A DNA stretch of 64,000 nt, taken from positions 7,380 to 71,379 of the forward strand of contig DHXR01000052.1 of the NCBI GenBank assembly GCA_002413785.1, read 5' to 3'. Under the pieces are notes generated by a model that saw nothing but the letters and a program-made list of their open reading frames with translations, did not search any database and was not told the DNA's origin. Below, piece by piece: positions 44,500 through 46,274 of this stretch (positions are counted from its first letter, which is position 1; each line of letters opens with the position of its first letter). The position numbers were made by a program, and so were the translations under genes. This DNA comes from Mucilaginibacter sp. UBA5151. Lineage in GTDB: Bacteria > Bacteroidota > Bacteroidia > Sphingobacteriales > Sphingobacteriaceae.

Positions 44500-44502
44500 T
44501 TC

Positions 44503-44615
44503 GCCTCACCCTGCCCTCTCTCCGAAGGAGTCCGGAGTCCTTCGGACCAAAGGAGAGGGTTTTTAAAAAAGAGCGAAGTTTAAGTCCTCTCCTTTGGAGA
44601 GGATTTAGGTGGGGC
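44503..44615. repeat. REP doublet with nested GGAGTCC...GGAC palindrome
   Basis: Same family as 33247-33354. Confidence 0.8.
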
Positions 44616-44678
44616 CTCGCAGGTTAAAAAAAAAGCGAAGTTTAAGTCCTCTCCTTTGAAGAGGATTCAAAAAAGGGG

Positions 44679-44789
44679 TGTCATGGTGAGGCACTCGAAC
44701 CATGTGGGGTGGCCTGTACGGCTTTGCATAGCCGTTATTGCATTGACGTTGTGCCTTTGCGCACATGGTTCGAGTGCCTCACCATGACA
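44679..44789. mobile_element. 111-bp MITE/REPIN, inverted copy of 29863-29972
   Basis: Identical 26-bp arms and a highly similar interior. Confidence 0.85.
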
Positions 44790-44825
44790 CCCAAAGCTAC
44801 AGGGAAAATACCTATATAATAAATA

Positions 44826-46160
44826 ATGAAGCATAACATCATCCTTACCAAAAAAAGCAAATCAGTAAAGGGTACCGTACACCTCACCGGTTCAAAAAGT
44901 GAATGTAACCGCGCCCTTATTATTGAAGCGCTGAGCAACGGTAAAGTAAAGGTTGAGAATATTTCGGATGCCGCGGATACGGTGACGCTCGCAGGTATCC
45001 TGCGGGCAGAGGTTAGAGATAAGAGATTAGAGATTAGTCAAACAAATAATTCCGGGGTTAATCCCCTAAGCTCTAATCTCCAATCTCCAATCTCTGAAAT
45101 CAACATCGGTCCTGCCGGCACGGCTATGCGCTTTTTAACGGCTTACTTCACTTTACAGCCTGCCTGCCGGACAGGCAGGGATGAAGAAGTGATTTTAACC
45201 GGCAGTGAACGCATGAAACAACGTCCGATAGGAATTTTGGTGGATGCTTTACGCGAACTGGGCGCGCATATTGAATACGTTGAAAACGAGGGTTTTCCCC
45301 CTATCAAATTGAAAGGCAGTCTGGAGCAGCTTTCTAATAAGGTCAGTATAAAAGGAAATATAAGCAGTCAGTACATCACTGCGCTATTGCTTATAGCTGC
45401 CCGGCTGCCTTTTGGTTTGGAATTAAATATTGAAGGAGAACTTACTTCGCGCCCTTATGTGGAGATGACACTGGCCATGCTGCAAACCGCAGGGATACAG
45501 CATACCTGGGAAGGCAATACCATCAGCATAAAACACCAGGAATTTACGCCAACCTTGTTGCATGTGGAACCGGATTGGAGCGCGGCTTCTTATTGGTACG
45601 CCATTGCAGCTTTGGCTGATGAAGCCGAATTGTTTTTACCAGGCTTAACGCAATACAGCCTGCAGGGCGACAGCGTGATCACGGAGATTATGGCTAATTT
45701 TGGCATCACCTCGCAGTTTAAAGATGGCGGTGTTTATTTACAGAAGGAAGTAAAACCGGTTATCCGCAAAATATTCGATCTGAAAGAATGTCCCGACCTG
45801 GCCCAAACCATCATCGTGGTATGCGCTGCATTAGGCCATGAAGCTACCTTTACAGGATTAGAAACTTTAAAGATCAAGGAAACCGACCGCATAAAGGCCC
45901 TGCAAAATGAGCTGGCAAAAATCGGCGTTAAGCTAATTGAAAAAGGACAGGTTTATAAACTGGATTGCAGCGAAAAATTCATCCCCGAACGTATATTTGT
46001 AAACACCTATGACGATCACCGCATGGCAATGGCCTTTGCGCCGCTGGCCCTGCTGATAAACGAAGTAGAAATTGAAGATGCGCAGGTAGTTGAAAAATCG
46101 TACCCCGCATTTTGGAAGGATTTGGAGAAGGTGGGATTTGAGGGAGAGATTAGAGGTTAG
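44826..46160 (+). CDS. aroA: EPSP synthase with two repeat-derived in-frame insertions
   Basis: GSKSECNR, GPAGTAMR, RMKQRP, SSQY, KETDR, DDHRMAM, KSYP. Confidence 0.96.
   Translation: MKHNIILTKKSKSVKGTVHLTGSKSECNRALIIEALSNGKVKVENISDAADTVTLAGILRAEVRDKRLEISQTNNSGVNPLSSNLQSPISEINIGPAGTAMRFLTAYFTLQPACRTGRDEEVILTGSERMKQRPIGILVDALRELGAHIEYVENEGFPPIKLKGSLEQLSNKVSIKGNISSQYITALLLIAARLPFGLELNIEGELTSRPYVEMTLAMLQTAGIQHTWEGNTISIKHQEFTPTLLHVEPDWSAASYWYAIAALADEAELFLPGLTQYSLQGDSVITEIMANFGITSQFKDGGVYLQKEVKPVIRKIFDLKECPDLAQTIIVVCAALGHEATFTGLETLKIKETDRIKALQNELAKIGVKLIEKGQVYKLDCSEKFIPERIFVNTYDDHRMAMAFAPLALLINEVEIEDAQVVEKSYPAFWKDLEKVGFEGEIRG
45008..45095. repeat. Heptamer-arm inverted-repeat element inside aroA
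   Basis: Left arm 26/30 identical to 11985-12014; right arm 45066-45095. Confidence 0.85.
45159..45179. repeat. 21-bp palindrome inside aroA, encoding PACRTGR
   Basis: CCTGCCTG-CCGGA-CAGGCAGG, exactly 7 codons. Confidence 0.85.
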
Positions 46161-46274
46161 AGATTGGAGATTAGAAGGAGCCTGATCTCCAGGCCCTAAA
46201 AAAACCAATGACACAATGACTAATGACAAAAAAATCGGTGCAATCATAAAAAAATCGGTGTAATCACAAAAAAT

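What the first reader, a model, noticed from the sequence alone, without database searches (positions are those of the whole stretch)
45159..45179. Second, independent 21-bp palindrome insertion (PACRTGR) in aroA
Seen: CCTGCCTG-CCGGA-CAGGCAGG is exactly 7 codons, between YFTLQ and DEEVILTG, close to the GPAGTAMR motif. Inference: a minimal frame-preserving mobile palindrome. Two different repeat families in one gene suggests tolerant loops or an insertion hotspot.
Basis: partly seen in the sequence, partly recalled or inferred. Interest (0 to 1): 0.65.

Follow-up and report, generated by a model that had tools for sequence, protein, structure and literature searches.

The report
Mobile 21-base hairpin inside aroA
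A 21-base perfect DNA hairpin sits in frame in the essential enzyme gene aroA of a soil Mucilaginibacter; it is one copy of a tiny repeat that has landed seamlessly in several core genes of this genus, so it is a new example of a known phenomenon, with some odd features.

Summary
Window 45159-45179 is CCTGCCTG-CCGGA-CAGGCAGG, exactly 7 codons (PACRTGR) inside an intact EPSP synthase gene. It is a true insertion. Of 229 species genomes of the genus, only this one and its nearest relative G115 have the filled site with this perfect form; G055 carries a variant there. Close relatives show the clean empty site TTNCAG|GAYGA, with no target duplication.

It belongs to a small dispersed family that I call P: a 20-nt perfect palindrome and a 21-nt variant, 0-46 exact copies per genome. 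Copies nest in the loops of other hairpin repeats and in a 57-63-nt three-hairpin composite.

The 21-nt form lies alone and in frame in at least five unrelated genes: aroA, rlmD, recJ, a TonB-receptor-like gene and one other. The recJ copy is a clean gain in G115 against an empty G000 site.

At the aroA and rlmD sites, presence is scattered over the gene trees (AU test rejects one clade, p 0.0003). The 21-mer shows no synonymous change while the flanks are saturated (p about 1e-6). The copies therefore look younger than their host alleles.

AlphaFold puts the 7 residues in a low-confidence loop. No dedicated transposase gene lies beside any copy examined, so the mechanism is inferred. The closest known kinds are intragenic REPs and Rickettsia RPEs.

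The parts
45159..45179 (+). P21: 21-nt perfect hairpin (8-bp stem CCTGCCTG/CAGGCAGG, loop CCGGA), translated as PACRTGR (AroA residues 112-118)
   Evidence: Sequence. Unique in the window. Absent from 29 orthologues. Identical copy at the same site in G115. Same 21-mer elsewhere in the genome and genus.
45153..45158 (+). 5' flank of the insertion site (TTACAG, codons Leu-Gln); the empty site in relatives reads TTNCAG|GAYGA
   Evidence: DNA comparison with 23 genus orthologues and 8 metagenome alleles. The boundary is ambiguous by one G. There is no target-site duplication.
45180..45185 (+). 3' flank of the insertion site (GATGAA, Asp-Glu)
44826..46160 (+). aroA (EPSP synthase, class I-like), intact host gene and the only copy in the genome
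   Evidence: Pfam PF00275 at E 2e-82. PDB homologues down to E 8e-63. One match in G000. Residues expected at the catalytic positions are invariant in the alignment.
45008..45095 (+). First, unrelated in-frame repeat cassette of aroA (heptamer-arm hairpin). Context only; it is the subject of another finding.
Evidence: Hypervariable block in all genus orthologues. pLDDT below 50 at residues 65-89.

Best explanation
The 21 bases are a copy of a very small REP-like palindromic repeat, called P here. P exists as a 20-nt perfect palindrome (CCTGCCTGCC|GGCAGGCAGG) and as a 21-nt variant with one extra central base. It spreads within Mucilaginibacter genomes as a discrete unit with exact ends and no target duplication. 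Shown: the copy entered aroA between codons Gln111 and Asp112 (numbering without the insert) before the split of this genome from its nearest relative G115. It adds seven residues to a loop between helix 97-110 and strand 122-126 and leaves the gene open. Inferred: because aroA is needed for aromatic amino acid synthesis, only an insert whose length is a multiple of three, in a tolerant loop, could persist. This explains why the 21-nt form, not the commoner 20-nt form, is seen in core genes. Shown: the same site carries the same 21-mer, with changes only at positions 7 and 19, in several lineages that are not each other's closest relatives. The 21-mer has no synonymous changes although the flanks are saturated. 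Inferred (about 60%): copies at this site are repeatedly gained or exchanged by a seamless, site-preferring process, most plausibly a single-strand hairpin cut-and-rejoin reaction of the HUH/Y1-transposase type acting in trans. After insertion, the encoded Cys is purged by selection (TGC to AGC or GGC). The aroA copy itself most likely has no function; it is a tolerated passenger. The confidence given (0.7) is for the core claim, a tolerated in-frame copy of a mobile REP-like hairpin family; the enzymatic mechanism alone would rate about 0.3.
For: Insertion and site: 29 orthologues lack it and the closest empty sites are exact. The exact filled-site pattern was found only in G000 and G115 of 229 genus genomes; G055 carries a variant 21-mer at the same site.

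Family: exact-stem copies occur in 21 of 121 genomes, 0-46 per genome, and the reversed control gives 0 everywhere.

Discrete unit: G115 has the 20-nt palindrome between GTTGTTCA and TTTACGG where the matching G000 copy of the same repeat element has none. G115 recJ has the 21-mer where G000 has TCCAA|CGGGCA, and no other of the 229 genus genomes has the 21-mer there. Copies are nested in the loops of CCCTCTCC/GGAGAGGG hairpins and other repeats.

In frame in other genes: rlmD in G022, G204, G216 and G064; a roughly 900-aa TonB-receptor-like ORF and a 609-aa ORF; recJ; and, as part of the composite, murF and a BshC-like ORF.

Selection filter: a 20-nt relative frameshifts a multi-copy Y1-like paralogue.

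Recurrence: 6 of 117 AroA homologues carry it. The tree needs 7 changes, at least 4 of them forced, and the AU test rejects one clade (p 0.0003). There are three +/- sister groups at 87-90% nt identity, whose flanks are as similar as the rest of the gene. For rlmD, 18 of 120 homologues carry an insert and the tree needs 11 changes.

Youth of copies: 0 of 5 four-fold sites vary inside the insert against 65 of 66 in the flanks (p 5e-7). For rlmD the figures are 0 of 6 against 50 of 54 (p 4e-6). The murF composite is 63/63 identical between G000 and G115 against 86% in the flanks.

Cys purge in three genes and on both strands.

Tolerant loop: pLDDT is below 50 only at residues 65-89 and 113-119.
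Against: No enzyme is identified. None of the Y1_Tnp (PF01797) genes of G000, G115, G085, G007, G070 or G106 has a P copy within 1.5 kb. G106 has 9 copies of P and a single Y1 match. No conserved target motif emerged; a G immediately 5' of the 21-mer is common, but the sample is about 13 sites. Identical position and orientation in all aroA carriers would also fit one old insertion. Sub-variants shared between distant alleles (P0016 and P0018 are identical) fit descent or copying better than independent mutation. G000 itself holds only about a dozen family members, so there is no sign of present activity in this genome.
Confidence: 0.7

Rival explanations
1. One ancient insertion in an ancestor of a large Mucilaginibacter clade, inherited vertically, followed by many independent precise deletions. 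The surviving copies would be kept nearly unchanged by a nucleotide-level constraint: an mRNA or DNA hairpin, or hairpin-templated correction.
For: All carriers have the same site, length and loop orientation. P0052 carries a copy with 6 of 21 changes, as an old insert would. The A19G change keeps a U-G wobble in RNA, so the observed variants largely spare a 6-bp RNA stem (sequence).
Against: It needs many seamless 21-nt deletions without flanking direct repeats; only a 1-nt G repeat is present. The T7G and T7A changes break a stem pair, so the hairpin is not strictly maintained. The loop third positions are also unchanged. The same pattern appears in rlmD. Host-level selection on a junk loop is not expected. 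The AU test rejects one clade on the gene tree, although losses would also produce that result.
Confidence: 0.2
2. The insert spreads between lineages by homologous recombination of aroA segments (allele exchange), not by insertion. The scatter on the tree would then reflect mosaic genes.
For: aroA is visibly mosaic. G000 shares its first cassette type with the more distant G021, while G115 and P0015 share another type.
Against: In the 171 nt immediately flanking the site, each carrier is closest to its own non-carrier sister and not to other carriers. The flanks of carriers are saturated at four-fold sites while the 21-mer is invariant. Conversion tracts would therefore have to be about as short as the insert itself.
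Confidence: 0.07
3. The hairpin or the seven residues are adaptive in aroA, for example a translational pause site, an mRNA stability element or a modified enzyme loop, and are kept by selection.
For: The perfect stem is conserved 21/21 between G000 and G115. The fold is strong in the mRNA context.
Against: At 90% flank identity, 21 unchanged bases are expected by chance about 12% of the time. About 95% of close homologues do without it. Other carriers have broken stems and changed residues. The same 21-mer sits in unrelated genes and in non-coding repeats. The loop has low model confidence and lies at the far end of the helix whose start carries the GPAGT motif.
Confidence: 0.05
4. Local de novo origin: a replication template switch built the palindrome from nearby aroA sequence. 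CCTGCCGG occurs 51 nt upstream in the GPAG codons.
For: An 8-9-nt match between the GPAG codons and the core of the 21-mer (sequence).
Against: The identical 21-mer occurs at unrelated loci in this genome and in 18 other genus genomes. rlmD and recJ have no such local template.
Confidence: 0.02

Closest known systems
Intragenic REP elements (GTAG- and CGTC-tagged palindromic repeats; Di Nocera et al. 2013, PMC3733652)
   Same: Both are short GC-rich stem-loops; CGTC REPs have stems of 8-9 bp and loops of 4-5 nt. Both are dispersed, with copy number very uneven between species. In both, some copies lie wholly inside genes for known proteins, including repair genes (recJ here). CGTC REPs likewise have no dedicated transposase (read).
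   Different: P has no GTAG or CGTC tag and no 3-bp tail. It is a 20-nt perfect palindrome or a 21-nt hairpin with nothing else. Copy numbers are low (0-46). No REPtron was found. It is often nested in the loops of other repeats. The same gene site is occupied in non-sister lineages.
Rickettsia palindromic elements (RPE; Ogata et al. 2000, as summarised in PMC3733652)
   Same: Palindromic repeats inserted in frame in genes that stay functional, adding a peptide segment to a tolerant part of the protein.
   Different: RPE-1 is about 100-150 bp and encodes 30-50 residues; P21 encodes 7. The phylum and lifestyle differ (free-living soil Bacteroidota). Sequence relatedness was neither tested nor expected.
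IS200/IS605-type single-strand transposition and its short derivatives (RAYT/REP, PATEs)
   Same: Hairpin-based elements that insert and excise seamlessly, without target duplication. The behaviour of P resembles this most closely (exact ends, no duplication, clean empty sites).
   Different: Those elements carry distinct left and right ends, insert 3' of a fixed tetra- or pentanucleotide and have a cognate TnpA. P is one symmetric hairpin, shows no fixed target, and no adjacent Y1 gene was found. This is a resemblance in behaviour only.
MITEs giving in-frame fusions (e.g. Coxiella QMITEs, PMC5896051)
   Same: Non-autonomous repeats that contribute amino acids to annotated proteins.
   Different: MITEs are 70-300 bp with terminal inverted repeats and target duplications, and lie mostly at gene 3' ends. 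P is 20-21 nt, makes no duplication and sits in the middle of genes.

Membership tests
REP (repetitive extragenic palindrome) superfamilies GTAG/CGTC | Short (20-40 bp) GC-rich stem-loop present in many dispersed copies | tested here: met
   8-bp stem with a 5-nt loop, or a 10+10 palindrome. About 12 family members in G000 and 0-46 exact copies in 121 genus genomes.
REP (repetitive extragenic palindrome) superfamilies GTAG/CGTC | GTAG or CGTC tetranucleotide tag at one end of the stem-loop | tested here: not met
   The unit begins CCTG and ends CAGG. The flanks differ between copies and carry no such tag.
REP (repetitive extragenic palindrome) superfamilies GTAG/CGTC | Association with a RAYT gene flanked by the repeat (REPtron); holds for GTAG REPs only | tested here: not met
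   39 Y1_Tnp matches in six genomes; 38 of these loci were scanned. No P copy lies within 1.5 kb of any, apart from a P-like insertion inside one paralogue.
Rickettsia palindromic elements (RPE) | Palindromic repeat inserted in frame within genes that remain open | tested here: met
   aroA, rlmD, recJ, a TonB-receptor-like ORF and a 609-aa ORF; murF and a BshC-like ORF via the composite.
Rickettsia palindromic elements (RPE) | Element sequence and size class of the RPE families (tens to about 150 bp, Rickettsia) | tested here: not met
   21 nt, in Mucilaginibacter. Rfam has no matching family.
MITE | Terminal inverted repeats around an internal region, with target-site duplication | tested here: not met
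   Filled/empty pairs in aroA, recJ and an intergenic repeat show exactly 21 or 20 nt added and no duplication.
IS200/IS605-like (Y1 HUH) mobilised element | Seamless insertion without duplication | tested here: met
IS200/IS605-like (Y1 HUH) mobilised element | Insertion 3' of a conserved tetra- or pentanucleotide and a cognate transposase that cleaves the hairpin | tested here: inconclusive
   The 5' flanks are CAG, ATG/ACG, TGG, GGG, CAA and others; G is frequent but there is no fixed motif. Y1 genes exist in the genome but are not linked to P. Cleavage cannot be tested with these tools.
EPSP synthase (host gene) | Full-length match to PF00275 with the conserved substrate-binding residues | tested here: met
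   E 2e-82 over model positions 2-417 of 417. PDB EPSPS hits. K24, S25, R29, G98, T99, R129, D318, E346, H398, R399 and K424 are invariant in 30 sequences.

The most novel reading that the evidence does not exclude
P21 would be the smallest autonomous-looking unit of mobile DNA described in bacteria. It is a 21-nt hairpin that a trans-acting enzyme inserts and removes seamlessly at preferred sites inside essential genes, and that moves between such sites (and perhaps between species). Its copies would then stay 'young' while the host genes diverge. It would be a minimal, frame-neutral gene parasite with a gain-decay-loss cycle like that of homing elements.
Probability: 0.3. Interest if true: 0.8.

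Novelty: new member of a known kind. Interest (0 to 1): 0.5.

Why it matters
Palindromic repeats inside genes are known from Rickettsia and from some REP-rich bacteria, but how they get there is unsettled. This case is clean and tractable. The unit is only 20-21 nt and has exact ends and no duplication. Matched filled and empty sites exist between close relatives in aroA, recJ and rlmD.

Two features ask for a mechanism. First, the same codon boundary is occupied in non-sister lineages. Second, the insert stays invariant at synonymous sites while its flanks are saturated. If an enzyme that inserts or excises the hairpin can be found, it would explain how REP-like elements without a dedicated transposase move.

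The case also gives a natural experiment on which protein loops tolerate insertions, and on how fast an exposed Cys is purged. If there is no such enzyme, it remains a tidy example of neutral repeat DNA in core genes.

Tried and rejected
Rfam (E-value threshold) on eight composite-bearing loci gave only sub-threshold miRNA-like hairpin noise.

The five- to six-fold excess of the octamer CCTGCCTG in the genome (360 sites) is not due to the family. Nearly all contexts are unique, so it is general oligonucleotide bias.

A target-site duplication was sought by hand. CAG...CAGG at the aroA junction does not give the empty site. Only a 1-nt G ambiguity remains.

The REPtron idea failed: no P copy lies next to any Y1_Tnp gene in six genomes.

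Compensatory changes were expected in the variant aroA inserts, but the changes are not compensatory: G-A or A-A mismatches and a T-G pair.

Recombination hitch-hiking was not seen in the flanks.

Conservation of the perfect stem between G000 and G115 alone is not significant (0.90^21 is about 0.12).

No paper on Mucilaginibacter repeats turned up, and this scan has no look-alike note by sequence.

Fold search was not used, because the sequence match to solved EPSPS structures already fixes the fold.

Full report
**1. Observation**

Window 45159-45179 reads CCTGCCTG-CCGGA-CAGGCAGG, an 8-bp perfect stem with a 5-nt loop. It is the only such site in the window even with two mismatches allowed, and chance expectation is 0.02.

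It lies in frame in the ORF 44826-46160 (+). That ORF is a full-length EPSP synthase: Pfam PF00275 at E 2e-82, with solved EPSPS structures down to E 8e-63. It sits in an aromatic-biosynthesis gene row between a DAHP synthase/chorismate mutase gene and chorismate synthase.

The seven codons give PACRTGR between YFTLQ and DEEVILTG. The window is contig C85 of a 4.74-Mb, 41% G+C genome. The named homologues in the protein search are all from Mucilaginibacter.

**2. It is an insertion**

AroA from 23 genomes of the genus and 6 from other families all lack the seven residues. At DNA level the closest of these (G021) reads TTGCAG|GATGAAGAG where the window reads TTACAG-[21 nt]-GATGAAGAA. The boundary is ambiguous by one G. 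There is no target duplication.

A degenerate pattern for the filled site found it in 2 of 229 species genomes of the genus: this one and G115. G115's AroA is 92% identical and carries the identical 21-mer. That pattern missed G055, which carries a variant 21-mer at the same site (see section 6).

**3. The family**

The same 21-mer occurs three more times in this genome, on the other strand. A 20-nt perfect palindrome, CCTGCCTGCC|GGCAGGCAGG, and near-copies of it occur about eight times.

Across 121 genomes of the genus, exact-stem copies number 0-46 per genome: G115 has 46, G085 15, G007 14 and G070 13. The reversed-sequence control gives none.

The contexts are as follows.
- The 21-nt form is normally the middle hairpin of a three-hairpin composite of about 57-63 nt.
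- The 20-nt form sits in the loops of CCCTCTCC/GGAGAGGG hairpins, inside TCGGAC-type repeats, inside 'cattgcgag' repeats, and at the centre of a roughly 100-nt element in G085.
- Rfam has no matching family.
- The genome-wide excess of the octamer itself is ordinary oligonucleotide bias.

**4. It behaves as a discrete inserted unit**

- In one repeat element, G115 has the 20-mer exactly between GTTGTTCA and TTTACGG, where the G000 copy has nothing. In a sister copy, the left flank has been rewritten as the reverse complement of the right flank, so the palindrome has grown outward.
- In recJ, G115 has the 21-mer in frame (SN[LPAGQAG]G) where G000 reads TCCAA|CGGGCA. This is exactly 21 nt with no duplication. 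No other genome of the 229 has the 21-mer there, so it is a gain in the G115 lineage since its split from G000.

**5. In frame in several genes**

The solo 21-mer is translated in these genes:
- aroA;
- rlmD (G022, G204, G216, G064);
- recJ (G115);
- a roughly 900-aa TonB-receptor-like ORF (G152, G194, G064);
- a 609-aa ORF (G170).

The composite is translated in murF and in a BshC-like ORF of this genome. murF carries a second repeat-derived block as well. The unit has no stop codon in any of the six frames (direct reading of the sequence).

A 20-nt relative inserted in a Y1-transposase-like paralogue causes a frameshift relative to the intact paralogue 5 kb away. The simplest reading is a selection filter: in needed genes, only multiples of three in tolerant loops survive.

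**6. Recurrence at the aroA site**

Among the 120 best AroA homologues in the large protein collection, 117 could be scored at the site and 6 carry a 7-residue insert exactly there: PACRTGR, PAGRTGR, PAGRTGG (twice), PASRTGG and PASPAGK. Their DNA shows the same 21-mer in the same orientation. It differs only at position 7 (T, G or A) and position 19 (A or G), except for one copy with six changes. The changes are not compensatory.

On an ML tree built without the insert and cassette columns:
- the carriers need 7 changes of state, at least 4 of them forced by well-supported branches;
- an AU test rejects the carriers as one clade (log-likelihood difference 183, p 0.0003).

There are three carrier/non-carrier sister groups at 87-90% nucleotide identity. 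In the 171 nt around the site, each carrier is closest to its own non-carrier sister, so there is no hitch-hiking haplotype.

rlmD shows the same picture: 18 of 120 homologues carry an insert at one site, with the same peptide variants, and the tree needs 11 changes. The variant CCTGCCAGCCGGACAGGCGGG is found in aroA of G055 and in rlmD of three other species.

**7. Copies look younger than their hosts**

| Comparison | Variable four-fold sites in flanks | Variable inside the 21-mer | Fisher p |
|---|---|---|---|
| Six aroA carrier alleles | 65 of 66 | 0 of 5 | 5e-7 |
| Four rlmD carriers | 50 of 54 | 0 of 6 | 4e-6 |

The murF composite is 63/63 identical between G000 and G115 while its flanks are 86% identical (p 8e-5).

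The changes that do occur remove the Cys codon (TGC to AGC or GGC) or turn AGG into GGG. The same Cys purge is seen on the opposite strand in the TonB-receptor-like gene. The window's copy still has the Cys.

**8. Place in the protein**

An AlphaFold model built on 30 homologues has mean pLDDT 77.5. Only two segments fall below 50: residues 65-89 (the first cassette) and 113-119 (this insert). The insert lies in the loop between helix 97-110, whose start carries the GPAGT motif, and strand 122-126.

Residues expected at the EPSPS substrate-binding positions are invariant in the alignment. It follows from established EPSPS structures that this loop is at the end of the helix remote from the cleft. 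This was not measured on the model.

**9. Mechanism**

Shown: exact ends, no duplication, nesting in hairpin loops, a recent gain, recurrence at two gene sites, and young copies.

Inferred: a seamless hairpin-dependent reaction on single-stranded DNA of the HUH/Y1 type would give all of these.

Against: although the genome has three good and several weak Y1_Tnp matches, no P copy flanks any such gene in six genomes. No fixed target motif is evident either. The enzyme is therefore unknown.

The rivals are one old insertion with many seamless losses and a nucleotide-level constraint, allele exchange, adaptive value, and local template switching. They are weighed in their own section.

**10. Comparison and verdict**

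The nearest known kinds are:
- intragenic REPs, especially the CGTC class, which have 8-9-bp stems and 4-5-nt loops, no dedicated transposase, and copies in repair genes (PMC3733652);
- Rickettsia RPEs.

P lacks the defining tags and sizes of both, so it works like them but is not a member. It is a new family of a known kind. The site recurrence and the synonymous freeze remain the open, interesting points.

I confirmed that the cassette differs between close relatives and that aroA is mosaic there.

Noticed in passing
G000 contig C5:26990-28543 (-), outside the window (locus L146): murF carries two in-frame repeat-derived blocks that orthologues lack. One is the 63-nt three-hairpin composite (KVSPPAGGGDLPAGQAGLEGA). 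The other is a block of about 50 residues near the C-terminus built of TCGGAC-type repeats with a nested 20-nt P-like palindrome.
   Followed up: partly
G000 contig C28:193900-195648 (-), outside the window (locus L177): A 583-aa BshC-like ORF carries TCGGAC repeats plus the composite in frame (..SPKVRKSESRSSE..KVSPPSGGGACLPDRQDLEGA..).
   Followed up: no
G000 contig C22:19797-25100, outside the window (loci L035, L036, L038): A cluster of three paralogous Y1-transposase-like genes (weak PF01797 matches). One is frameshifted by a 20-nt P-like hairpin, CCTGCCTACCGGCAGGCGGG. The stretches contain runs of N.
   Followed up: partly
window 44676-44792: A 31-bp perfect inverted repeat with a 55-nt spacer lies just upstream of aroA. 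It sits in an intergenic region (44500-44825) packed with other hairpin repeats: 44521-44546, and 44547-44558 paired with 44586-44597.
   Followed up: no
window 46140-46195: The last codons of aroA (GEIRG) and the sequence just downstream are heptamer repeats (GAGATTA/GAGGTTA type) of the same kind as the first aroA cassette. The C-terminal tails of genus orthologues differ in length and sequence.
   Followed up: no
L072 (G115:C1:40811-41430) against G000 C1:20100-20300: Next to an inserted 20-nt palindrome, the left flank has been replaced by the reverse complement of the right flank (CATTACCGTAAA-P-TTTACGGTAATG). The palindrome has been extended outward, which suggests fold-back templated synthesis.
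   Followed up: partly
L071 (G115 murF) against G000 C5:~27900: G115 has 24 extra bases of TCCGAAAG-type tandem repeats in frame just upstream of the murF composite. Repeat number inside core genes therefore changes between the two closest genomes.
   Followed up: no
aroA first cassette, window 45008-45095, against G115, P0015 and G021: The cassette type is incongruent with the rest of the gene. G000 shares its type with the more distant G021, while its nearest relatives G115 and P0015 share another type. This indicates replacement or recombination of the cassette.
   Followed up: partly
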